Of a DNA stretch of 33,678 nucleotides, positions 11,184 to 24,239 are shown piece by piece; position 1 is the first letter of the stretch, and each line of letters opens with the position of its first letter. Both the position numbers and the translations under genes were made by a program. Source of the DNA: Stramenopiles sp. TOSAG23-2. Taxonomy: Eukaryota. The stretch covers positions 1 through 33,678 of the forward strand of contig LT649357.1 in assembly GCA_900128395.1 (NCBI GenBank), in the 5' to 3' direction. The notes beneath the pieces were generated by a model. The model was given only the letters and a program-made list of their open reading frames with translations. It was not told the origin of the DNA and did not search any database.

Positions 11184-11677
11184 TTAATCGGTCAAATATG
11201 AAGTTGAAAGTCATCACATAGTAAAATATACTATGTATCATATGAGTTTTCTTTACAAGTCACTACATGTTATTCTCGTTTTTTTTTACCGTACACGCAC
11301 GCGATTATGTTTCTCAAGCTTATTTGCTTAGAGTTGCGCTAAGCGTTGTATTTTATCTACAGCTGTATCATCATGCTGTTTAGGTCCTTTTCACATATAT
11401 TTTATTAAAAGAAGAATTCGAGAGACACAAAATTCCACACCATTTGTCTGTCACGCGAAATAAGAGAAGAAAGGCGCAATGCCTTCATTTACATTACACT
11501 TATTTTTTACGTTCGTATAAAATTATATTTTTACTCGTAGTACGAGTAATAAAAATAAATACACAAATTTTCGTATTTTTAAGAAATAATTTTTTACATT
11601 TAAAAATCACACTCCAGATATATATCAGTAATTAAATCATTTTATTAAATACACACTCTCCCCGTGTCTCCCCTTTC

Positions 11678-11897
11678 TCAATTCTCAAATCTCTCCTTTG
11701 TTTTCACCACCTAACACTGCCTCGTCGCAACAACTACATACAGCCCTGTCTTCTTCAAATGTTTCAACGAATCATCAATACAATCTTCAATTCTCAAATC
11801 TCTCCTTTGTTTTCACCACCTAACACTGCCTCGTCGCAACAACTACATACAGCCCTGTCTTCTTCAAATGTTTCAACGAATCATCAATACAATCTTC
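11678..11897. repeat. Perfect direct tandem duplication, 109-bp period, covering the last codons, stop and 3' flank of the TTI1 fusion gene
   Basis: TCAATTCTCAAATCTCTCC...CAATACAATCT starts at 11678 and again at 11787. Confidence 0.95.
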
Positions 11898-14800
11898 TGT
11901 CAATATACTCAATGAAAACCCATTACGTTCCATGTCTTTAAAAAATTCATATTCACGATCTGCATGTCGTAATTTATACACAATGATAATAATACCATTT
12001 GCATTAATTAATTTCTTAAATGAATTTATTAAATCCGTATAATATGTTGTATCATATAAACAATCGGATGCAAATATCATATCGTATCTTGTATGAACAT
12101 CTTGTTCTATTGCCCAATCAAACGTTTGACACAAAATATCTGTATCCGAAGTAATAAAGTTGGATTCCAATGCAACCTTTACATTGTCCTTTGCTACACT
12201 TACAATTTCTTCAATATCAGTTAAAATAACTTTCTTTGCACCATATATTTGTGCAAGTATACCGCAAAAACCAGTACCACATCCTAAATCAATTACAGTC
12301 TTTCCATTCAAATATTTATCAAATGCTAAATAATGTTCAATGATCTTTGCCAATATTAGACCACAATCCCAAACAACTGCACCTAATCCAACATTTAGCT
12401 TTTGCACGACATTAAATACTTTTCCATCATCATCATCTGTAGTAGTATTATTAATACTAAATTTATATGGAAAAGCTGGTTTATTTGCAACTGCATAATT
12501 AATTCCTAATGATCCGACGGTTTTACCCGACATGTTTATACCAGAATGAAATAAATATGTTTCCAATGGATTGACAGCAAACGGATGGATAATTTTGGAT
12601 GGTATTCCATTTAACATATTGTAAACAAACAAATCATGTTTTACTTGTTGTAAAATATGCGATGGGTCTATATTTAATTTTTCTAACAATGTTAACGATT
12701 TTTTGTTCTTATTACCTTTGTAAATAGGTGTAATAGTATTAGTACCGATTGTTTGTAATGCTAATTCTGGTAAGTTCGTTCGTAATATGTTTGAAATACG
12801 ATCCAATTTATCATCATGTTTAAACAATAATTGTTCTTCCATAATAATTGCATGGAAAACTGATGTTGAATCAATTTTATATAAGTTTAATAAAAGATTG
12901 CAAATATTTTTATGATCATCTCCATCCATAAATCCTTCTGGGATAATTCGCAATGCTTTACAACATGTTGTCGATAATTCCCATACATGTGTATTCAGTA
13001 GAGATGGTGCAAATTTACTTAAATCTAACAAGCTACATAAAATGGTATATATGTATTTATGTGTCGTTGATCGCATCACGTATTTTGCTTTTCGTGATGA
13101 GATTACTTTGGCATTGCTATTATTATTATTATCGCCATCAATATACAATTCATCTAATGTAATCGAATTATTAGATTTAAATAAAGCATTTACTTTAGTT
13201 TTCAATATGTTGATTAATTTTGGCCATAATTCTTTTGAAAATCTTGCCAAGATAAAGTCAGGACATAATTTTGCTATTTGAACAATTCCGAGTAACGATT
13301 CACGTATGACTGGAAAATATTCACTTTCATTATTATCATGTTCATCATTCTTGCTGTGTTTTGTTCTTTGAAAAATATTTAAACGATTATTAATCATATG
13401 GAATCGACTTATTAAATGTTTCCAGACTTCTGCTACTGTTGGCAATAGTTGTTTTTCATTATGATTTAACACCTTGAGTCCAAATGATATACTTTTTATT
13501 ATTTTACATTGCAATATACTTGGACTTTCAGGTAAAAAAATGCATAATTTTCTGATGATTTTTTGGGATACATCCCGTTCCATTTTATATGGTTTATTAT
13601 CTTTATTTTCATCTTTATCGTTGTCCTTTTCTTCTTCTTTTCCCTCATCATCATTTGTTTTCTCATCCTCATCATCGTTCAAATCGTTTAAGATATTTTC
13701 CCATGCAATAATTTCATTTATCAATCCTTGTGTCGACGTTGGCAATTTTATTATAGGAGAAATTGCTTCATCGGCTTTGCCTGTGGTATCGTCTATACCT
13801 TGTTTATCATCATCATCATCATCGATATATTCATCTAAACATGCCATTAAATCTTCAACAGCATATAATAATACTGTTAATATATTTGATGATGTTGCAA
13901 ACATAAATGTATTTCGTTGTACAACTTCTGTATCTAATGCACGTAACAACGTTTGAACGATTTCTTTTAATAATCCACCATATGCTGCATCGACACCACC
14001 AACAGTATGTTTCACTACACTACGAATAACACGAGGTGTGGTTGGATAAATATTTAAAAAATTCAATCGTGAACATATATTATCAATTAAATAATCTACA
14101 TTTGCTTCAATTAGTTGATTGATACTATTATAACCACATACAATACAGATACGTTTAATGCAATATAATGTATTTTGTTGTATTATTGGATCATCATCAC
14201 TTAATTTTTCTAATAATGGATAAATAACATTTAATAAATTTGCTTTAAATGTTTCAATATAATTTTCAGCTATAGTAGCTAAGCGTTGTAAATATAATGA
14301 TGATACAATAACATGTTCTGAATGTTGCAACGTTGTACTTTGTTGTGGTAAACGAATGCCGCCACCACTTACATTTCTTTTATCATCGGAGTTGATTGGG
14401 ATTAATTTTGTATTCAAGTTGGTATTATTATTATTATTATTACCAACATCGTTATTATTGTAAATATGATTGGTTTGATGATGCCATAATTTAGAATTCA
14501 CTGTATTTTTCAAGCAATTTTCAATAAACACGTCGGTTAATTCTTTTTTTGCACCATGAATAATAGAATTGGACATAAAAATACATTCACACGGTGATGA
14601 ATGTCGCCAATCTACGTTGTTATGATTAGTATTTGTACTAGTATTTGCATGATGGTTCATATCTACCATTGTAAATTCTGTTAAATATTCTAATAACATA
14701 CGCCCATCTACAAATGTACCAATTTTCGATAATAATATATGTAACATCTCCTTTGATTGATTATTTTTCATATATTTAAATGGAATATCATAATATCCAA

Positions 14801-16226
14801 TAGCATGATGACGATTCTTAGTAGAGTTCTGGTTGTTATTGTTATTATTATTATTACCTTGTTCCATCGAAATAATTACATTATCATTGTCATATTTTAA
14901 TGGTTGTCGTATACGTGTATTGATATTTTGATAATCTGGTTTTAATATTTTTGAAATATAAAATAATTTCTTTTTAAATTTCATCATGGTAAAAATATTA
15001 TCTTCTAATTTATCTTGTAATAGATCGACATACGCAATTAAAGTTTGTATACGTTTTGTTAATACATTTTCTTCTAATTCAGTATGAATTGTTTTTGCTG
15101 TTAATCTTAATACATCATCAAATCTATTTTCAATACGTTTCCATAAAGTACTTGTTTTATTTTTTATATAAATTTCTTTTACTTTTTCAATTGTTTTATT
15201 TGCATTTTCAACAACTTGATCAGATATGGAAGCGATGGAAAATTGTAATACAATTTCTAAAAAATCATCTTGACATGTTGCCGTCATTGTATTTGAACAA
15301 TCAATTAAAATAACATTTGCAAGTTCAATCGTTTCTAGATGGACTTTGTATCTATTTTGTGATTGTAAGTAATTCAACGAATTGATTGTTTTCAATATAG
15401 TACTTGCAACAATGGATAATTTTGCTGTGGTTTCATATAACCATTTATGATTTCTATTTACCTGTATTTTCTTCTTATCATTCGTATTATCATCATCATT
15501 ATTATTATTGTTTGGTTGTTCTAATGATTTGTTTTCTTCTATGATGGTTCCATTATCATTTATCGGTGTTGTTACTTTCATACCATATGATTGTAATAAT
15601 AATCGTATATTATTCGTATTGTTGTTGTTGCTGTTGTTGTTGTTATTATTATTATTGTTGTTGTTTCGAAAATTTCTTACATCAATATATTGACTTACAT
15701 CATTACTAATTGTTAATTTAATAATAGTTTTCCATAATGAAATTGCTGCACGTAAAACATTATTACCACGTTTTAAATCGCTTTTACCACATATAAGTTT
15801 ATGTACACCACCAGTAATCCCGGGCAAGAAACATGATAATGTATTTGCATCTTGTACATAGGTACAAATATTTTCTAATAATGTTATACTATTCAACATG
15901 TTTACACGATTTCTTGATTGAACGGAAATACTTATTAATACAGCAATAAAATGTCCTAAAATAATACGTTTATCTGCACGTGCAAAGATTTTACCTACGG
16001 TGGGGGTAAATATCTCAGTTAGAATGGCAATTGCTAATGTCTTCGCTTCTTCACTTGTATTACTATTAAATTCACCTTTTTGACTACCTAAAATGGATAC
16101 GGAAAATTGAAAATGTACGACCCATTGTTTTGGATTTGTATCTAAATGTAATCTTGGAATTTGTTGTAACATATTTTCTAATGTTGTTTCTAATTGTATT
16201 CGTTGTTGTTGTTGTGTATTTTTCAT
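11820..16226 (-). CDS. TTI1: TELO2-interacting protein 1 (TTI1, HEAT repeats) fused to a C-terminal Methyltransf_16/METTL21-like lysine methyltransferase, 1468 aa
   Basis: TTI1 motifs LSCFLPGI, IYPLLEKL..CGYNSINQLIEANVDYLID, LLPTVAEVW and CPDFILARF..LWP. The last ~200 aa contain GAVVWD, VIDLGCGTG, VILTD, FDW and IFASDCLYD. Single uninterrupted ORF. Confidence 0.88.
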   Translation of the reverse strand: MKNTQQQQRIQLETTLENMLQQIPRLHLDTNPKQWVVHFQFSVSILGSQKGEFNSNTSEEAKTLAIAILTEIFTPTVGKIFARADKRIILGHFIAVLISISVQSRNRVNMLNSITLLENICTYVQDANTLSCFLPGITGGVHKLICGKSDLKRGNNVLRAAISLWKTIIKLTISNDVSQYIDVRNFRNNNNNNNNNNNSNNNNTNNIRLLLQSYGMKVTTPINDNGTIIEENKSLEQPNNNNNDDDNTNDKKKIQVNRNHKWLYETTAKLSIVASTILKTINSLNYLQSQNRYKVHLETIELANVILIDCSNTMTATCQDDFLEIVLQFSIASISDQVVENANKTIEKVKEIYIKNKTSTLWKRIENRFDDVLRLTAKTIHTELEENVLTKRIQTLIAYVDLLQDKLEDNIFTMMKFKKKLFYISKILKPDYQNINTRIRQPLKYDNDNVIISMEQGNNNNNNNNQNSTKNRHHAIGYYDIPFKYMKNNQSKEMLHILLSKIGTFVDGRMLLEYLTEFTMVDMNHHANTSTNTNHNNVDWRHSSPCECIFMSNSIIHGAKKELTDVFIENCLKNTVNSKLWHHQTNHIYNNNDVGNNNNNNTNLNTKLIPINSDDKRNVSGGGIRLPQQSTTLQHSEHVIVSSLYLQRLATIAENYIETFKANLLNVIYPLLEKLSDDDPIIQQNTLYCIKRICIVCGYNSINQLIEANVDYLIDNICSRLNFLNIYPTTPRVIRSVVKHTVGGVDAAYGGLLKEIVQTLLRALDTEVVQRNTFMFATSSNILTVLLYAVEDLMACLDEYIDDDDDDKQGIDDTTGKADEAISPIIKLPTSTQGLINEIIAWENILNDLNDDEDEKTNDDEGKEEEKDNDKDENKDNKPYKMERDVSQKIIRKLCIFLPESPSILQCKIIKSISFGLKVLNHNEKQLLPTVAEVWKHLISRFHMINNRLNIFQRTKHSKNDEHDNNESEYFPVIRESLLGIVQIAKLCPDFILARFSKELWPKLINILKTKVNALFKSNNSITLDELYIDGDNNNNSNAKVISSRKAKYVMRSTTHKYIYTILCSLLDLSKFAPSLLNTHVWELSTTCCKALRIIPEGFMDGDDHKNICNLLLNLYKIDSTSVFHAIIMEEQLLFKHDDKLDRISNILRTNLPELALQTIGTNTITPIYKGNKNKKSLTLLEKLNIDPSHILQQVKHDLFVYNMLNGIPSKIIHPFAVNPLETYLFHSGINMSGKTVGSLGINYAVANKPAFPYKFSINNTTTDDDDGKVFNVVQKLNVGLGAVVWDCGLILAKIIEHYLAFDKYLNGKTVIDLGCGTGFCGILAQIYGAKKVILTDIEEIVSVAKDNVKVALESNFITSDTDILCQTFDWAIEQDVHTRYDMIFASDCLYDTTYYTDLINSFKKLINANGIIIIVYKLRHADREYEFFKDMERNGFSLSILTEDCIDDSLKHLKKTGLYVVVATRQC

Positions 16227-16569
16227 GATTAATTTGTGTATTGTTTTGTTTTTTAAAGACAGGGTTTGGGTGTTGTTCTTATTGTGTTGGAAAAAAAGGT
16301 GGGGTGGATAGATGATAATTATGTTTTATCTTTCTTTGATGCCATATGAAGTTTTCTTAGTCTCGTCTTTCCTTTCTTTCCTTCATTCAATTCAATTCAT
16401 CACAGTTTTAGTTTCACTTTTATTATGGTCTCTTTTGAGACGAGCAACACGATAATATGTAAGAGATATATTATAGCAACCAAACACACAAAAAAATATA
16501 AATAGAACCATATACTTCCCTTTTTCTTTTCTCTTTTCACTAGTATAGAATAATAATAATAATAATAAT

Positions 16570-17780
16570 ATGGAAGAGTTAATACAAGAATTCCCATCCA
16601 TTGTATTGGAAACAAATGAAAGAACAAAACAACGTAGTATTAAATGTAAACAACCAATTAAAAATAAAGAAATGATATTTCGCTCTAAATTAGCTGCATG
16701 TACTATACATAGAAAGTAAGTTTATTAATAAATAATACTTTTTTGGTGCTATAGATATTTATAATTCATATTACCCCATCTCTTACTATCTTCTTATGCA
16801 AAGATCAAATATTTCATACCACACAAATTCTTTTGTCTAACATTAATTTAATATATTGCAAAAGACATTATAAATTATTATGTTTTGGATGTAAAAGATT
16901 TTATGAAAGTTTAAAATTCACGCAACAAGTTCAATGTGAAGTATGTAAAACAACTTTTTATTGTTCTCTTGAATGTATGGAGGCTGATAAAATATATCAT
17001 AAGCCCCATTGCCAATTATTACCAATAATTGATAAGGATAAAGGATTGAAAAAAGAAGAAACAAGTTTTGTCATTTTATTATTACGGCTACTATCGAATC
17101 TCTATCATAATAACAACAACGATAATAATAATAAGAAGAAGAATTTTATACAATTGAAGCATATTTTAAATATGATGCAAGATAATGCCACGGTGGGAGG
17201 ATACAAAAGGCGTCAGAAGCAGCGGGAAAGGGCTGCAAAATATTTTTTGGCGTTAATGAATAATAGTAATAATAACAATAATAGTCTTGATGATATGTTG
17301 AAAGTACTCCCACAGTTTTTGAATGTAGGTGTACTTACTTCTATATTGGCCGCAGGGCCATTAAATGAATTCGCACTATTTGATGTGGATGGGGAAGCAG
17401 TCGGTTGTGGATATTTTCCACTTGCAGCTATGGCAAACCATAGTTGCATACCGACTGCATCAGTGCAGATTGAAGGCAAGTATATGGTATTTTACGCCAC
17501 GAGAGATCTGGAGGTAGGTGAGGAAATCACTCAGAGTTATGCTAACTTGGGTGATGATGGTAGGTTAACTCGTATGGAAAATATTGAGGTGAGTTGGGGG
17601 TTTACCTGTGTGTGCTTACGTTGTAAAATTGATAGTGGTAGTGGTGGTGATGAGAGTATTTGTAAAAAATTTGATGAAGCAAATGTTTGTGTCTGTGGGG
17701 GTGTGATTGTTCCACAGGCACACCAAGGAAAGAGAGAAGATGATGACTGTAAATGTAATAGTTATAATTTGATTGTGTAA
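16570..17780 (+). CDS. SMYD: SMYD-family SET and MYND domain lysine methyltransferase, 2 exons: 16570-16715, 16865-17780, ~353 aa
   Basis: Exon 1 supplies the N-SET segment (QRSIKCKQPIKNKEMIF). Intron 16716 GTAAGT..CTAAC..AAG 16864 joins in frame. MYND CxxC..CEVC..YCSLEC..H..HC, SET motifs ANHSCIP and GEEITQSY, post-SET WGFTCVCLRC. Confidence 0.9.
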
Positions 17781-18153: not shown

Positions 18154-19140
18154 TCAAATACCAGGTGATAAAAGACTTGCTACTGAATCAGATCGATTGG
18201 AATTTGAAAATACTTTCTTTGTGGAATGCGATGGCGATGGTGTATTTGTATTACTATTATTGTTTTGATTAAATAAAAATGTTGACGGCGATTGTTGTGG
18301 TGGTTGCATTTGTTTTTGTCGCTGCTGCTGTTGTCGTTGTTGCATTACAAATGATGGTGAGCTTACTACATTTACATTATTATTATTATTAACAAATATT
18401 TTTGATTTCAATTTTTCATTTTCAACATTATTATTATTATTACCAGCCATCATTCTTGTCGTCGTCGTCGTCCCAGTACGTCCAACTTCTAATGATTTTG
18501 TATCCTGATTATCAAAATATGATTGTTGTGCATAATTCAATCGTATACTACGATCTTTAATAGCGGACGGTACATCATGTGTTTTATTATTATCATTTCC
18601 ACCACCAAAAGTTGGATGATTGTTATATACAACGAAATTGTTTGTTTGTGGTACATATTGATTTAAACGATAATGTTTATCCAAAAATGACAATAACTTC
18701 GGTGATGGCCTATCATATGCCAATATATGTGGCTCAATACCTTGGTCTTTAAGCATATGTTCAAATAACGTTAAACCAATGCCTTGACGTTGGCAATTTT
18801 CGTTAACATAAAAGTCTAATACACACAACGGAAACATTTCGATCATTCCTCCGCGGCTAGTATGAATAAACAACTTTTTATATCCAACTTTTATAAAACC
18901 AAGTGCAGATTGATAGTTGGATGCCATGTATACAACATGATCTGAAGAACTTAATTTTGATGCTGTCGTTATGACAGCGCCAAGTTGTTGTGCTGAAGCA
19001 GATGCCTGTCCCATCTCATTTATAATTTTAATTACTTCTTTTCCAAATCGTCCTCTCGTTGATGTTTGCAATGAACGACTATCTAAACGTGTTATATTAT
19101 TACCACCTAATACACGTCTTACGGAAAATGGAAAGTTCAT
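18154..19140 (-). CDS. ATAT1: Alpha-tubulin N-acetyltransferase 1 (MEC-17)
   Basis: MGQASASAQQL..IT, GFIKVGYKKLF, PLCVLDFYV.E.CQRQG.G..LF..ML, AYDRPSPKLLSFL.KHY and PQTNNFVV, followed by a disordered N/Q-rich tail. Confidence 0.96.
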   Translation of the reverse strand: MNFPFSVRRVLGGNNITRLDSRSLQTSTRGRFGKEVIKIINEMGQASASAQQLGAVITTASKLSSSDHVVYMASNYQSALGFIKVGYKKLFIHTSRGGMIEMFPLCVLDFYVNENCQRQGIGLTLFEHMLKDQGIEPHILAYDRPSPKLLSFLDKHYRLNQYVPQTNNFVVYNNHPTFGGGNDNNKTHDVPSAIKDRSIRLNYAQQSYFDNQDTKSLEVGRTGTTTTTRMMAGNNNNNVENEKLKSKIFVNNNNNVNVVSSPSFVMQQRQQQQRQKQMQPPQQSPSTFLFNQNNNSNTNTPSPSHSTKKVFSNSNRSDSVASLLSPGI

Positions 19141-21575: not shown

Positions 21576-24239
21576 ATGAAACAGAATTATAAAGTAGGAG
21601 ATGTTGTATGGGTGAAAATGCGTGGCTCACCATGGTGGCCTGCTTCAATACAATTACCAAAAACAAAACAACAACAAGAAGAATTTGAAGATATTATGGA
21701 AAAAAATAATAAGAAAGAAACACGTTTATTTGTAATATTCTTTGGTGATAATTCATATTATTTTGCAAAAAATACCAAAGGAAACGGAGAAATATTACCT
21801 TTTGAAGAACGTAAAGAAGAAATGTTAAAACGTTGTCATTCCAAATTATTTAAAAAAGCTGTAGAAGAAGCAGAAGAATATGTATTAGAAGAAGTTGAGG
21901 AGGAGTCAGAAGAAGATGATGAGTCAAAAGAGGAAGAACAAGACGACGATGATGACAAAGATGATAAAAATAGTCAAAGTGATAGTAATAGTGATTTAGA
22001 AGCATTTGAACCAAGAGCTAGTTTAAGTCCAAGCAAAAACAACAACAATAATAATAATAATAACAACATTGTAATATCAGAAATAGCACCATCTTCTACT
22101 AGGAAAAAAAAACGTAATATGAATAATAATAACATGTTATCTAGTCCACCTGCTAGCCAACCTCATGCAATCGTTCGATCTGCAAGTAGGACCCCTGGTG
22201 GTACGAGGCGTATCAAATGGATTGGAAAATCAATTGGAAATGGTATTGATCGTGAAAAATATTATGATGGATTTCGTTTAGATAGAGATGAATACCATGT
22301 TGGTGATTGCGTTTTCGTACGTATGGATGATGAAGAAGATGATTTATGGGTTGCAGAATTAGAAAGTTTATGGGAAGATAAATACAAAGAAAAATGGTTT
22401 GAAGGACGATGGTTTTATTCTGCATTAAATGCTCGTGCGCATTCCAATTATGGCCAAGGTAGAAATGGTAACAATCGCAATTGGACTGATGCAATATCTC
22501 GACATGAATTGTATGAAAGTGATCATGTAGATGAAAATACAATTGATTGTGTAGAAGGAAAAGCAAAAGTGATAACACAGCAAGAATTTCAAACCTATAA
22601 TCGTTCAAAAAGAAATTCACAACAAGAACAAACTTTTTTTTGTAAAGCATTTTATAGTACAAAAACAAGGATGATACGTCCTATCCTTGGAGCAACAAAA
22701 CGTGTACAACGTGCAAAACTTTATAGTAATCGTTTGATTGATGCATTAAGTGATAATGATGATGAGGATGAGGACGACGAAGAAGATGATTCTGAAGAAG
22801 AGGAAGATGAAATCATAAATAGTAAAAAACGAAAAAAAAATAATAGTAATAATAATAGTAGCTCGAGAAAAAATAAGAAGAAGAAGAAAAAGAAGAATCA
22901 AAATACAGGTAGCAATAATAATACTACTACTACCACGACGACGACGATGATAACAACAACTACTACGAATATAACAAGCAATAACAACAATAAAAATAAG
23001 AAAAAACAATTGTTTGAAAATTGTGCAAAAGCATGTGCTGCATTGCAATTATCACATGTACCGAAATCATTACCATGTCGTGAAAAAGAACGGAAACAAG
23101 TCATGCATTTTTTAAAAAGTGCAGTAGAACGTGGTGGTTTAGGAAGTGCGTTGTATATTTCTGGAATGCCTGGAACAGGTAAAACGGCAACTGTCATGGA
23201 AGTTATACGAACATTAAAGGAAAATGCAAGAAGAGGTTTAAATCCAGATTTCGAATTTATTGAATTAAATGGTATGAAATTGCCTCATCCGTATGAAGCA
23301 TATTCAATTATATGGCGAGGTTTAACTGGTCAAGATGCTGCACCGAAAAAAGCAGCTTCTTTACTCGAACGAAGATTTGCAACGCCATCATCTAAACGAC
23401 AATGTTGTGTCTTATTAGTCGATGAATTGGATTATATGGTAACTAGAAAACAAAGTGTATTATATAATTTGTTTGATTGGCCAAGTAAACGTTATTCCCG
23501 CCTTGTAGTTGTTGGAATTGCCAATACGATGGATTTGCCAGAGCGTTTATTACCACGTATCCATAGTAGGCTTGGATTGGAACGTGTTATTTTTCCAGGT
23601 TATACAGTACCACAAATTGAAACCATCATGAAAGCTCGATTAGGGGAATTAGATGTATTTGAAGATACTGCAGTAGAAATCTGTGCAAGAAAAGTTGCAT
23701 CTATTTCTGGTGATATAAGACGAGCATTACAAATTGCAAGACGTGCAGCAGAGATATGTGATAGAGAAGCAAATGAAATGGCAGAAGAGATAGACCTAAA
23801 TAATACTATTAACAACAACAACAACAACAACAACAGGAGCAAAGATCCATACGTAACGATTCGACATATTAATTTAGCGCATAAAGAATTAACAACAACT
23901 GCATATATATTAGCAATTAAACATGCATCCTTGTTTGAACGGTTATTATTAGCTTCTGTTGTATTGCAAATAAGAGGAAGTGGTTTAGAAGAAGTCATGT
24001 ATGATGATGTTATGAGGAGATTTGAAGGATTATGTCGTACACGTGGTGGTCCAATATCTCATCATCCTTCACGTACTTCCACGAAATCTATATGTAGACG
24101 TTTAGCATCATCCGGATTAATCGTATTAGATCAACGATCGACGGATTGGGATTGGCAACCAAAAATACGATTGAATGTGTTGCCAGATGACGTTGTATAT
24201 GCGTTATCCGGCGATAATACAACAAGGAGTTTGTTTTGA
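21576..24239 (+). CDS. ORC1: Origin recognition complex subunit 1 with N-terminal PWWP, BAH, AAA+ and winged-helix domains
   Basis: PWWP GDVVWVKMRGSPWWP..VIFFGD. BAH YHVGDCVFV..WVAELESLWE..WFY..ELYES. AAA+ LPCREKE, Walker A YISGMPGTGKT, Walker B LLVDELD, LYNLFDWP, GIANTMDLPER and SGDIRRAL. Confidence 0.95.
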   Translation: MKQNYKVGDVVWVKMRGSPWWPASIQLPKTKQQQEEFEDIMEKNNKKETRLFVIFFGDNSYYFAKNTKGNGEILPFEERKEEMLKRCHSKLFKKAVEEAEEYVLEEVEEESEEDDESKEEEQDDDDDKDDKNSQSDSNSDLEAFEPRASLSPSKNNNNNNNNNNIVISEIAPSSTRKKKRNMNNNNMLSSPPASQPHAIVRSASRTPGGTRRIKWIGKSIGNGIDREKYYDGFRLDRDEYHVGDCVFVRMDDEEDDLWVAELESLWEDKYKEKWFEGRWFYSALNARAHSNYGQGRNGNNRNWTDAISRHELYESDHVDENTIDCVEGKAKVITQQEFQTYNRSKRNSQQEQTFFCKAFYSTKTRMIRPILGATKRVQRAKLYSNRLIDALSDNDDEDEDDEEDDSEEEEDEIINSKKRKKNNSNNNSSSRKNKKKKKKKNQNTGSNNNTTTTTTTTMITTTTTNITSNNNNKNKKKQLFENCAKACAALQLSHVPKSLPCREKERKQVMHFLKSAVERGGLGSALYISGMPGTGKTATVMEVIRTLKENARRGLNPDFEFIELNGMKLPHPYEAYSIIWRGLTGQDAAPKKAASLLERRFATPSSKRQCCVLLVDELDYMVTRKQSVLYNLFDWPSKRYSRLVVVGIANTMDLPERLLPRIHSRLGLERVIFPGYTVPQIETIMKARLGELDVFEDTAVEICARKVASISGDIRRALQIARRAAEICDREANEMAEEIDLNNTINNNNNNNNRSKDPYVTIRHINLAHKELTTTAYILAIKHASLFERLLLASVVLQIRGSGLEEVMYDDVMRRFEGLCRTRGGPISHHPSRTSTKSICRRLASSGLIVLDQRSTDWDWQPKIRLNVLPDDVVYALSGDNTTRSLF

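What the first reader, a model, noticed from the sequence alone, without database searches (positions are those of the whole stretch)
11820..16226. TTI1 fused in frame to a METTL21/Methyltransf_16-type lysine methyltransferase
Seen: one stop-free ORF joins a full-length TTI1 HEAT scaffold through a linker to an apparently intact class-I SAM methyltransferase (about 11820-12430: WD, DLGCGTG, LTD, ASDCLY). Known: TTI1 acts in the TTT complex with R2TP/HSP90 to assemble PIKK kinases, and family-16 enzymes methylate chaperones and translation factors (HSP70, VCP, eEF1A). I know of no TTI1 carrying a catalytic domain. Inference: a Rosetta-stone link between lysine methylation and PIKK maturation.
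Basis: partly seen in the sequence, partly recalled or inferred. Interest (0 to 1): 0.78.

Follow-up and report, generated by a model that had tools for sequence, protein, structure and literature searches.

The report
TTI1 co-chaperone fused to lysine methyltransferase
A marine protist gene encodes the PIKK-kinase assembly scaffold TTI1 joined by a flexible tether to an apparently active METTL21-like protein lysine methyltransferase, an undescribed but conserved architecture that hints at methylation acting inside this chaperone pathway.

Summary
Window 11820-16226 (-) is one stop-free 1468-aa ORF. It carries three TTI1-specific Pfam domains and a C-terminal Methyltransf_16 domain, all well above the curated cut-offs.

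The fusion is not an assembly or gene-calling accident:
- The same architecture occurs in four other protein clusters at 98, 64, 39 and 38% identity. One cluster holds a EukProt MAST-4 stramenopile protein.
- An independent 99%-identical contig has the intact ORF.
- Metatranscriptome contigs from four studies tile the methyltransferase, the linker and the TTI1 end colinearly, with no splice joint there.

The methyltransferase looks active. All family-16 signature residues are invariant in 5 of 5 fused sequences, and the modelled fold matches METTL21D and METTL21A. The linker is poorly conserved and modelled as disordered.

The fused methyltransferase domains form one clade, SH-aLRT 99. Among the best 150 of 3951 hits in an exhaustive search, only this lineage is fused. 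No paper found describes the architecture.

The substrate, and therefore the "Rosetta-stone" link to PIKK maturation, remains inference. Verdict: a real new domain architecture of two known families, of moderate to high interest.

The parts
11820..16226 (-). Whole fusion gene: a 1468-aa ORF including the stop codon (11820-11822).
   Evidence: The same ORF (1470 aa) is intact in the independent contig L001. Several cluster members of 1468-1530 aa come from other assemblies.
15240..16082 (-). TTI1 N-terminal TPR/HEAT domain (residues 49-329). It is interrupted by an Asn-rich low-complexity insert.
   Evidence: PF24173, E 3.5e-26, 92.4 bits against a cut-off of 27.
13950..14225 (-). Central TTI1 signature domain (residues 668-759). 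This is the best-conserved TTI1 part: 48-49% identity to the MAST-4-type proteins over residues 636-800.
   Evidence: PF21547, E 1.6e-21.
12834..13688 (-). TTI1 C-terminal HEAT region. The Pfam stretch covers residues 847-943, and the helical repeats are modelled up to residue about 1131, ending at FHAIIMEE.
   Evidence: PF24181, E 6.1e-20. The AF2 model has helices with pLDDT mostly 80-96 for fragment residues 1-250. BLASTP to the unfused TTI1 P0188 runs colinearly through query residue 992.
12519..12833 (-). Linker (residues 1132-1236). It is poorly conserved, varies in length, and is mostly modelled as disordered, with one helix at about 1180-1206.
   Evidence: Identity to P0004 and P0005 is 25% and 19%, with indels. 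pLDDT is below 50 at residues 1136-1165 and 1197-1238. RNA contigs cover it colinearly.
12423..12518 (-). Conserved N-terminal extension of the methyltransferase module (residues 1237-1268, containing LGINYAVANKP). Stand-alone relatives share it.
   Evidence: G1241, A1247, N1248, K1249 and F1252 are invariant in the fused set. The same 'G(I/V)(N/D)(F/Y)..A' motif appears in P0043, P0047, P0053, P0055, P0056, P0057, P0061 and P0184.
11925..12422 (-). Methyltransf_16 seven-beta-strand catalytic domain (residues 1269-1434).
- Active-site Trp W1286: nt 12360-12377
- Motif I, DLGCGTG: nt 12270-12296
- Post-I D1337: nt 12216-12224
- Second Trp W1371: nt 12114-12122
- [D/E]XX[Y/F] motif DCLY, residues 1388-1391: nt 12054-12071
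   Evidence: PF10294, E 6.3e-29, 101 bits against a cut-off of 21. PDB sequence hits: METTL21A 3.2e-15, METTL21D 5.7e-15, METTL21B 2.8e-13. Foldseek TM-scores, normalised to the target, are 0.82-0.88 to METTL21D and METTL21A. Residue invariance is and coordinates.
11823..11924 (-). C-terminal strands of the methyltransferase module (residues 1435-1468).
   Evidence: Modelled as strands and a helix with pLDDT of about 79-90. T1457, G1458 and L1459 are invariant.
11678..11897 (.). A perfect 109-bp tandem duplication (2.0 copies) covering the last 25 codons, the stop codon and the start of the 3' flank. It does not change the protein.
   Evidence: It is absent from the 99%-identical contig L001, which has a single copy.

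Best explanation
SHOWN:
- The gene encodes a single polypeptide. A complete TTI1 HEAT-repeat scaffold (residues 1 to about 1131) is joined, through a roughly 100-residue, poorly conserved and probably disordered tether, to a METTL21-like family-16 seven-beta-strand methyltransferase module (residues about 1237-1468).
- That module keeps every residue known to define the family.
- The fusion arose once. It has been kept under constraint on both halves in at least two divergent clades of marine heterotrophic protists: the window's clade and a MAST-4-labelled clade.

INFERRED:
- The protein still serves as TTI1 in the TELO2-TTI1-TTI2 co-chaperone.
- In the human complex, the C-terminal end of TTI1 binds TTI2. 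TTI1 and TTI2 lie against the DII domains of RUVBL1-RUVBL2 and bind the kinase region of the PIKK client.
- An enzyme tethered at that end would therefore be held at high local concentration beside TTI2, RUVBL1/2, HSP90/HSP70 and the client's kinase region.
- It would transfer methyl groups from S-adenosylmethionine to one specific lysine of one of these proteins, during or after client loading.
- Which protein is methylated is unknown.

My odds: real single fusion protein about 0.9; catalytically active lysine methyltransferase about 0.75; substrate lies within the TTT/R2TP/HSP90/PIKK assembly about 0.45.
For: ORF and domains.

Conservation of the architecture:
- All 4 hits among proteins of 807-2569 aa, found with the methyltransferase part alone, carry the TTI1 Pfam domains. 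Their identities are 98, 64, 39 and 38%.
- With the TTI1 part alone, 4 of 7 hits are fused and 3 are not.

Independent DNA:
- L001 has an intact 1470-aa ORF. It differs from the window by 14 synonymous and 8 non-synonymous codon changes and two one-codon indels.
- 14 DNA runs hold half or more of the stretch's sampled words; the 20 holding runs (DNA and RNA together) come from 13 studies.

RNA:
- Contig X15 12492-13008 bridges the TTI1-end/linker boundary.
- X15 12150-12496, X17 (polyA) 12388-12575 and X18 (oligo-dT) 12449-12632 bridge the linker/methyltransferase boundaries.
- No joint was found in 11600-13600.

Catalytic competence:
- W1286, motif I (D1313 to G1319), D1337, W1371 and D1388 to Y1391 are invariant in 5 of 5 fused sequences.
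- These are the family-16 hallmarks named in PMC5324768 (passages read).
- The methyltransferase domain is as conserved as the TTI1 core (43-45% against 48-49%), while the linker is at 19-25%.
- The methyltransferase part of the AF2 model has pLDDT mostly 85-98. It matches METTL21D and METTL21A with TM-scores of 0.82-0.88.

Single origin: the 13 rows from fused clusters form one clade with SH-aLRT 99 among 139 rows.

Geometry: passages of PMC8278493 state that the TTI1 C-terminus binds the TTI2 N-terminus, that the TTI1/TTI2 HEAT repeats contact the RUVBL1-RUVBL2 DII domains, and that TTI1-TTI2 binds the mTOR kinase region.

Family habit: METTL21A methylates Hsp70 and VCP-KMT methylates the AAA+ ATPase VCP (start of the abstract of PMC4482628).
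Against: - No substrate, activity or interaction was tested.
- The RNA evidence consists of short assembled contigs from metatranscriptomes. They cannot show transcript ends or a single full-length mRNA, and they may include DNA carry-over. Only one contig bridges the TTI1-end/linker boundary.
- Two in-frame Met codons (M1204, M1232) lie in the linker, so a separate short product is not excluded.
- The methyltransferase is not closer to the chaperone-directed METTL21A or METTL21D than to the eEF1A-directed METTL21B.
- Its nearest stand-alone relatives carry other, unrelated N-terminal or C-terminal additions: a phosphatase-like region in P0056 and a second methyltransferase in P0061. This subfamily may therefore fuse promiscuously without any functional link.
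- No whole genome is held. I could not check whether a second, unfused TTI1 exists, or whether TELO2, TTI2 and RUVBL1/2 are present.
- PF24176 (TPR_TTI1_2nd) was not detected in the window protein at E <= 0.1.
Confidence: 0.6

Rival explanations
1. The fusion protein is real, but the two halves are functionally unrelated. A neighbouring or transposed family-16 methyltransferase gene lost its start and became fixed on the end of TTI1. It still methylates its old substrate, for example a translation factor, with TTI1 acting only as a carrier.
For: - Relatives of this methyltransferase subfamily occur with varied other additions: P0056 with a phosphatase-like region, P0061 with a second class-I methyltransferase, and P0053 and P0184 with 200-290 residues that have no family.
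- Tandem multi-Methyltransf_16 proteins also exist.
- The linker is long and unconserved.
- The similarity to METTL21B, the eEF1A enzyme, is nearly as strong as to METTL21A and METTL21D.
Against: - The fusion has been kept across lineages that share only 35-40% identity, with the methyltransferase as conserved as the TTI1 core.
- No split form of this clade was seen among the best 150 hits. P0040 (262 aa), an internal-Met piece of the MAST-4-type gene, is the only methyltransferase-only row from a fused clade there; other short rows from the fused clusters, such as P0025, P0039 and P0041, are fragments.
- Family-16 enzymes recognise folded substrates through their variable N-terminal regions (PMC5324768 passages). 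Here that N-terminal region is TTI1.
Confidence: 0.25
2. One locus gives two proteins. The methyltransferase is also, or mainly, made separately, either by an internal promoter or start (M1204 or M1232) or by proteolytic cleavage in the disordered linker. In that case the long ORF overstates the physical coupling.
For: - There are in-frame Met codons in the linker.
- The linker is disordered.
- The RNA contigs laid from the polyA and oligo-dT libraries lie mostly in the 3' third of the gene (table 8), though contig placement cannot rank parts of a gene.
- A MAST-4-type gene call (P0040, 262 aa) starts at an internal Met of the linker.
Against: - The reading frame is kept open through a linker of variable length in every lineage. 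That would not be needed for two separate genes.
- The chance of no stop in 137 codons here is about 2e-4.
- RNA contigs run through both linker boundaries.
- A 3' bias is expected from oligo-dT priming.
- P0040 looks like a call on a cut contig.
Confidence: 0.1
3. The methyltransferase domain is a non-catalytic pseudoenzyme used as a binding module, for example for a chaperone or a SAM-sensing input to the TOR pathway.
For: Nothing specific. It is raised only because no activity has been measured, and because SAM sensing upstream of TOR is known in other systems (recalled, not searched here).
Against: All SAM-binding and catalytic hallmarks are invariant in 5 of 5 fused sequences: motif I, the post-I Asp, both Trp residues and DXXY. 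Pseudoenzymes usually lose some of these.
Confidence: 0.04
4. The finding is an artefact: a chimeric assembly, a read-through gene call, or an in-frame unspliced intron between two genes.
For: - The window comes from an environmental or single-cell type assembly.
- It contains a 109-bp perfect duplication at the gene's 3' end that L001 lacks. This shows that local assembly errors or strain differences do occur.
Against: - The same ORF occurs in L001 and in many cluster members from other assemblies.
- The same architecture occurs in three further clusters down to 38% identity.
- RNA contigs are colinear with the DNA through the linker, with no joint.
- Conserved residues lie within the linker and the pre-methyltransferase region.
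Confidence: 0.01

Closest known systems
TTI1 / Tti1 (TELO2-interacting protein 1), the scaffold of the TTT co-chaperone for PIKK kinases
   Same: Three TTI1-specific Pfam domains occur in the canonical order, all above the curated cut-offs. The protein is an all-helical HEAT solenoid. It is colinear with the unfused TTI1 of a foraminifer, P0188.
   Different: Described TTI1 proteins are HEAT repeats only (PMC8278493 passages). TTI1 clusters in the Atlas list only TTI1 domains. This protein carries about 340 extra C-terminal residues that include an enzyme. It also has Asn-rich and acidic inserts.
METTL21A (HSPA-KMT), METTL21D (VCP-KMT) and METTL21B: human family-16 lysine methyltransferases
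   Same: Best sequence matches in the PDB are 3.2e-15, 5.7e-15 and 2.8e-13. Best fold matches have TM-scores of 0.82-0.88. The same hallmarks are present: [D/E]XX[Y/F], two Trp residues and motif I.
   Different: Sequence identity in the Foldseek structural alignments is only 19-23%, and there is no clear orthology to any one paralogue. The human enzymes are free proteins of about 200-230 residues that find their substrate by diffusion or through adaptors. This one is covalently tethered to a co-chaperone scaffold.
Stand-alone protist members of the same Methyltransf_16 subfamily (P0043, P0047 from the oomycete Thraustotheca clavata, P0053, P0055, P0056, P0057, P0061, P0184)
   Same: They share the pre-domain motif G(I/V)(N/D)(F/Y)..A and the C-terminal YK.RH..RE..FF block. 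They are the nearest neighbours in the tree, though with weak support of 22-83.
   Different: They carry no TTI1 domains. Their N-terminal regions are short or unrelated.

Membership tests
TTI1 (TELO2-interacting protein 1) | N-terminal TTI1 TPR/HEAT domain (PF24173) | tested here: met
   E 3.5e-26, 92.4 bits against a cut-off of 27, residues 49-329.
TTI1 (TELO2-interacting protein 1) | Central TTI1 domain (PF21547) | tested here: met
   E 1.6e-21, 76.4 bits against a cut-off of 27, residues 668-759.
TTI1 (TELO2-interacting protein 1) | C-terminal TTI1 TPR domain (PF24181) | tested here: met
   E 6.1e-20, 72.4 bits against a cut-off of 27. Helical repeats are modelled with high confidence up to residue about 1131.
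TTI1 (TELO2-interacting protein 1) | Second TPR domain (PF24176) | tested here: inconclusive
   Not listed for the window protein at E <= 0.1. It is precomputed for the fused relatives P0004 and P0005. The region holds low-complexity inserts.
TTI1 (TELO2-interacting protein 1) | Binds TELO2 and TTI2 and supports PIKK stability | not testable with these tools
   No genome is held, so the partner genes could not even be looked for.
Family 16 (Methyltransf_16 / MTF16) protein methyltransferases | Match to PF10294 above the curated cut-off | tested here: met
   101.4 bits against a cut-off of 21, profile positions 5-173 of 174.
Family 16 (Methyltransf_16 / MTF16) protein methyltransferases | [D/E]XX[Y/F] motif, present in all family members (PMC5324768) | tested here: met
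   D1388-C-L-Y1391, invariant in 5 of 5 fused sequences.
Family 16 (Methyltransf_16 / MTF16) protein methyltransferases | Invariant active-site Trp and a second Trp next to the adenine of AdoMet (PMC5324768) | tested here: met
   W1286 (VVWD, aligned to VVWD of METTL21A and METTL21D) and W1371 (FDW) are both invariant. That W1371 corresponds to the second Trp is judged from its position after beta-strand 4, not from a structure superposition.
Family 16 (Methyltransf_16 / MTF16) protein methyltransferases | Seven-beta-strand fold with glycine-rich motif I and the acidic post-I residue | tested here: met
   DLGCGTG and LTD are invariant. The model has pLDDT of 85-98. TM-scores to METTL21D and METTL21A are 0.82-0.88.
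Family 16 (Methyltransf_16 / MTF16) protein methyltransferases | SAM-dependent methylation of a specific protein lysine | not testable with these tools
   This needs an enzyme assay.
Orthologue of one particular human METTL21 paralogue (A, B, C or D) | Clearly closer to one paralogue than to the others | tested here: not met
   E-values are 3.2e-15 (A), 5.7e-15 (D), 2.8e-13 (B) and 5.3e-08 (C). The Foldseek ranks of D and A are interleaved. The nearest relatives are protist proteins of a subfamily of their own.

The most novel reading that the evidence does not exclude
Lysine methylation is a built-in step of PIKK kinase maturation in these protists. The methyltransferase tethered to the TTI2/RUVBL-facing end of TTI1 methylates one of three things: the client's kinase region, a RUVBL1/2 AAA+ subunit (as VCP-KMT does to the AAA+ protein VCP), or HSP90/HSP70. 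Methylation would mark or gate hand-over of the client. If so, the same reaction may be carried out in trans by an unassigned family-16 enzyme in other eukaryotes.
Probability: 0.3. Interest if true: 0.8.

Novelty: new variant of a known kind. Interest (0 to 1): 0.58.

Why it matters
TTT is the dedicated co-chaperone for all PIKK kinases (TOR, ATM, ATR, DNA-PKcs, SMG1, TRRAP). It is described as a purely structural set of HEAT-repeat adaptors.

Family-16 methyltransferases each have one highly specific substrate, often a chaperone or an AAA+ ATPase. Several family members are still orphans.

A conserved covalent fusion of the two is a classic Rosetta-stone pointer. It nominates a short list of candidate substrates (TTI2, TELO2, RUVBL1/2, HSP90/HSP70, PIKK kinase domains) that can be tested directly with recombinant protein. 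It also raises the question of whether an orphan METTL21-type enzyme does the same job in trans in animals, fungi and plants.

The finding also adds a lineage marker for uncultured marine stramenopiles.

If the halves turn out to be functionally unrelated, it remains a curiosity of domain shuffling.

Tried and rejected
- **Whole-genome search.** No genome is held for this window. I could not look for a second TTI1, or for TELO2, TTI2 or RUVBL1/2.
- **Profile search with the full-length alignment A1.** It was swamped by low-complexity words. 7999 candidates were scored and only P0002 and P0003 returned, so it says nothing about distribution.
- **ESM Atlas, whole protein.** It returned only Methyltransf_16 clusters at 0.75-0.79, below the level that counts.
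- **ESM Atlas, TTI1 part.** TTI1 clusters at 0.93-0.95 list only TTI1 domains. At most three families are shown per cluster, so this is weak evidence of absence.
- **Metagenome locus scan.** 3 of 53 pattern matches were confirmed. L002 and L003 (32-33% identity) are cut by the contig end at about residue 715, so they cannot tell whether they are fused.
- **Long hits P0042, P0046, P0077, P0044, P0050, P0051 and P0052.** I suspected further fusions, but they are tandem multi-Methyltransf_16 proteins without TTI1.
- **P0030, P0036 and P0038 (about 220 aa, in the MAST-4 cluster).** I suspected a split-off methyltransferase. They are the downstream neighbour gene, pulled into the cluster because the EukProt model P0032 merges it with the fusion.
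- **P0075.** This is a chimeric or frameshifted metagenome call.
- **Joint 13642->16233 in X18.** It has 39 foreign letters between the two sides and only 21 letters on the shorter side, so I treat it as spurious.
- **Parts of the gene without RNA contig cover.** Not used as evidence.
- **Global MAFFT placement of the last residues of unfused TTI1.** This was an alignment artefact. I used BLASTP instead.
- **One paper reading 'find' call.** It failed on a term with brackets and was not repeated.
- **Complex prediction.** Not used: no specific partner sequence from this organism is at hand.
- **Supplements of the papers.** These are closed. They are unlikely to bear on the claims made here.

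Full report
**1. Observation**

Window 11820-16226 on the minus strand is one ATG-initiated, stop-free ORF of 1468 codons. The window is AT-rich, with a GC fraction of 0.25-0.36, and stop codons make up 6.1% of all triplets. The chance of an open frame is therefore about 5e-41 for the whole ORF and about 2e-4 for the 137-codon stretch between the two conserved halves. In 200 shuffles of the ORF's own DNA, the longest open run had a mean of 69 and a maximum of 157 codons.

Pfam finds four domains:

| Domain | Residues | E-value |
|---|---|---|
| TPR_TTI1_N | 49-329 | 3.5e-26 |
| TTI1 | 668-759 | 1.6e-21 |
| TPR_TTI1_C | 847-943 | 6.1e-20 |
| Methyltransf_16 | 1269-1434 | 6.3e-29 |

Each scores far above its curated cut-off.

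**2. Is the join real?**

Conservation of the architecture:
- I searched with the methyltransferase part alone among proteins of 807-2569 residues. Four proteins scored E <= 0.001 among 928 candidates. All four carry the TTI1 Pfam domains as well: P0002 (98% identity, 1470 aa), P0003 (64%, 1451 aa), P0004 (39%, 1357 aa) and P0005 (38%, 1273 aa).
- I searched with the TTI1 part alone (residues 636-1135). Seven proteins came back: the same four fused ones and three unfused TTI1 proteins (P0188, P0189, P0190).
- The cluster of P0002 has 27 members, several of them 1468-1530 aa from different assemblies. The cluster of P0005 contains a EukProt entry labelled Stramenopile-MAST_4. The cluster of P0004 contains a TARA pico-size-fraction fragment.

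Independent DNA:
- A metagenome contig (L001) holds the same gene as an intact 1470-aa ORF.
- It differs from the window by 14 synonymous and 8 non-synonymous codon changes and two one-codon indels.
- A public gene model on that contig (P0008, 587 aa) starts at M882. It also runs through the linker into the methyltransferase.
- Twenty runs from 13 studies hold the stretch or a part of it. Fourteen of them, all DNA runs, hold half or more of its sampled words, and one of those may be the source sample.

RNA. I laid the contigs of four metatranscriptome runs from four studies on 11600-16400.
- X15 12492-13008 (1 mismatch) bridges the end of the TTI1 repeats and the linker.
- X15 12150-12496, X17 (polyA) 12388-12575 and X18 (oligo-dT) 12449-12632 bridge the linker and the methyltransferase module.
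- X16 adds 12576-12826 and 12898-13114.
- No joint lies in this part of the gene.
- These are short assembled contigs. They show that the linker is present, unspliced, in RNA libraries. They do not show that one mRNA spans the whole gene, and DNA carry-over cannot be excluded.

Taken together, an assembly chimera, a read-through gene call or an in-frame intron is very unlikely.

**3. Anatomy**

- **TTI1 part.** In the five-sequence alignment the TTI1 part ends at the conserved block VFHAII (residues about 1123-1131). BLASTP to the unfused TTI1 of a foraminifer (P0188, 1134 aa; name) is colinear from the N-terminus through residue 992. The TTI1 part is therefore full length.
- **Linker.** Residues 1132-1236 are 19-25% identical to the MAST-4-type proteins, with indels. 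This compares with 48-49% for the TTI1 core and 43-45% for the methyltransferase domain.
- **Model.** An AlphaFold2 model of residues 881-1468, built on a 26-row alignment, has mean pLDDT 80 and pTM 0.59. It gives confident HEAT helices up to about 1130. pLDDT is below 50 at 1136-1165 and 1197-1238, there is one helix at about 1180-1206, and the Rossmann-type domain is confident from about 1241 onward.
- **Reading.** The anatomy is two folded modules joined by a flexible tether.

**4. The methyltransferase**

- Sequence search of the PDB gives METTL21A (3.2e-15), METTL21D/VCP-KMT (5.7e-15), METTL21B (2.8e-13), METTL18, METTL21C and CaM-KMT.
- Foldseek ranks METTL21D and METTL21A first, with target-normalised TM-scores of 0.82-0.88 and rmsd of 2.3-3.1 Å.
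- Passages of PMC5324768 name the family-16 hallmarks: a [D/E]XX[Y/F] motif in all members, an invariant active-site Trp, and a second Trp next to the adenine of AdoMet.
- Here these are D1388-Y1391, W1286 and W1371. Together with motif I (DLGCGTG) and the post-I Asp (D1337), they are invariant in 5 of 5 fused sequences.
- I therefore expect an active enzyme.
- It is not an orthologue of one human paralogue.
- Its nearest relatives are protist proteins that share a pre-domain motif, G(I/V)(N/D)(F/Y)..A, and a C-terminal YK.RH..RE..FF block. They are P0043, P0047 (an oomycete partial model), P0053, P0055, P0056, P0057, P0061 and P0184.
- Some of these carry other additions: a phosphatase-like region in P0056 and a second class-I methyltransferase in P0061.

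**5. Distribution and origin**

I ran an exhaustive HMMER search of 1.84 billion representatives with residues 881-1468. It gave 3951 hits at E <= 0.001, 289 at <= 1e-10 and 4 at <= 1e-30.
- Among the 150 hits listed, only P0004 is a full-length TTI1 + Methyltransf_16 protein.
- P0039, P0040, P0041 and P0048 are pieces of fused-type genes. P0075 is a chimeric call.
- The seven other multi-domain hits that I scanned are tandem Methyltransf_16 proteins without TTI1.

I then built a tree of methyltransferase domains.
- It has 139 rows. Seventeen near-duplicates from the fused clusters were dropped first, and rows matching fewer than 140 query positions were excluded.
- The method was IQ-TREE in quick mode with the LG+G4 model.
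- The 13 rows from the fused clusters form one clade with SH-aLRT 99.
- The sister relations have weak support (22-83).

This fits a single fusion event before the split of the window's clade and the MAST-4-type clade.

The limits are these. Only the best 150 hits are listed, the word-indexed searches are insensitive, and the Atlas shows at most three families per cluster. A fusion in a more distant lineage, or with another family-16 subfamily, is therefore not excluded. The oomycete model P0047 is marked partial, and I could not see its upstream DNA.

**6. How it most likely works**

Passages of Pal et al. 2021 (PMC8278493) state four things:
- The C-terminus of TTI1 binds the N-terminus of TTI2.
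- TELO2-N binds the central and N-terminal part of TTI1.
[quoted passage not shown] A catalytic module on a roughly 100-residue tether at the TTI1 C-terminus would therefore sweep the volume that holds TTI2, the RUVBL DII face, the client's kinase region and the HSP90 recruited by R2TP.

Family-16 enzymes have single, structure-specific substrates, and their variable N-terminal regions matter for activity (PMC5324768). Known substrates include Hsp70 (METTL21A) and the AAA+ ATPase VCP (VCP-KMT) (start of the abstract of PMC4482628), and eEF1A (METTL21B; title of PMC5416902).

My best reading is a cis-tethered lysine methyltransferase. It would modify one component or client of the TTT-R2TP-HSP90 machinery. 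This step is inference, and nothing here tests it.

The main rival is that the fusion is kept for reasons unrelated to TTT function, given the modular habits of this subfamily. Separate products from internal starts (M1204, M1232) remain possible but are not favoured.

**7. Comparison with the known, and novelty**

- The protein meets the membership tests for TTI1 (three of four Pfam domains; the fourth is inconclusive).
- It meets the tests for family-16 methyltransferases (profile, motifs, fold).
- It fails the test for orthology with any one METTL21 paralogue.
- Three full-text searches found no paper describing such an architecture:
  - TTI1 + methyltransferase + fusion: 28 papers. None of the 15 listed concerns it, judging by title and abstract start.
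  - TTI1 + METTL21: 2 unrelated papers.
  - 'TELO2-interacting protein 1' + Methyltransf_16: 0 papers.
- Source names for the fused proteins are only 'predicted nicotinamide N-methyase'.
- I rate it a new variant (domain architecture) of known kinds.

**8. Context**

The neighbours are ordinary eukaryotic genes in a compact arrangement with few or no introns:
- a MYND + SET protein, placed head-to-head upstream
- a Mec-17 tubulin acetyltransferase
- an ORC1-like PWWP-BAH-AAA-Cdc6_C protein
- a protein kinase
- an IQ protein
- an Ariadne-type E3 ligase
- an NmrA-like protein

The holding runs are marine or seawater metagenomes.

**9. Verdict**

Interest 0.58.

Noticed in passing
window 11678-11897: A perfect 109-bp tandem duplication (2.0 copies, 100% match) repeats the last 25 codons, the stop codon and 31 nt of the 3' flank of the fusion gene. 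The 99%-identical contig L001 has a single copy. It is either a strain difference or a local assembly artefact. The protein is unchanged.
   Followed up: partly
window 16833-17780 (+): The divergent upstream neighbour, about 600 bp away and head-to-head, has a MYND zinc finger (residues 17-60) and a SET domain. It is a SMYD-like protein lysine methyltransferase sitting next to the TTI1-methyltransferase gene. The MYND match lies before the first ATG of that frame (16977), so its true start or exon structure is unresolved.
   Followed up: partly
window 21576-24239 (+): An ORC1/Cdc6-like AAA+ protein carries a PWWP domain ahead of the BAH domain (PWWP-BAH-AAA-Cdc6_C). I did not check whether the PWWP addition is usual.
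   Followed up: no
window 18154-19140 (-): A Mec-17-type alpha-tubulin acetyltransferase (PF05301, E 2.9e-57). It is consistent with a flagellated protist.
   Followed up: no
P0032 (EukProt MAST-4 model) versus P0005 and P0030: The EukProt gene model lacks part of the N-terminus. It also merges the fusion gene with its downstream neighbour, a gene of about 220 aa seen on 24 contigs as P0030. This is a gene-model error that also distorts the 90% clustering.
   Followed up: yes
P0042 (1923 aa), P0046 (1303 aa), P0077, P0044, P0050, P0051, P0052: These proteins have two to six tandem Methyltransf_16 domains, for example six matched stretches in P0042. They are an unusual multi-enzyme architecture of unknown origin.
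   Followed up: no
P0056 (454 aa) and P0061 (647 aa): These are close relatives of the fused methyltransferase domain that carry other partners. P0056 has a dual-specificity-phosphatase-like region (PF22785/PF00782, below the curated cut-offs). P0061 has a second class-I methyltransferase domain at its C-terminus.
   Followed up: no
window ORF residues 188-205, 238-250, 458-466, 600-612, 812-880: Asn-rich and Asp/Glu-rich low-complexity inserts sit inside the TTI1 scaffold. They are absent or different in P0004 and P0005. They swamp word-based homology searches.
   Followed up: no
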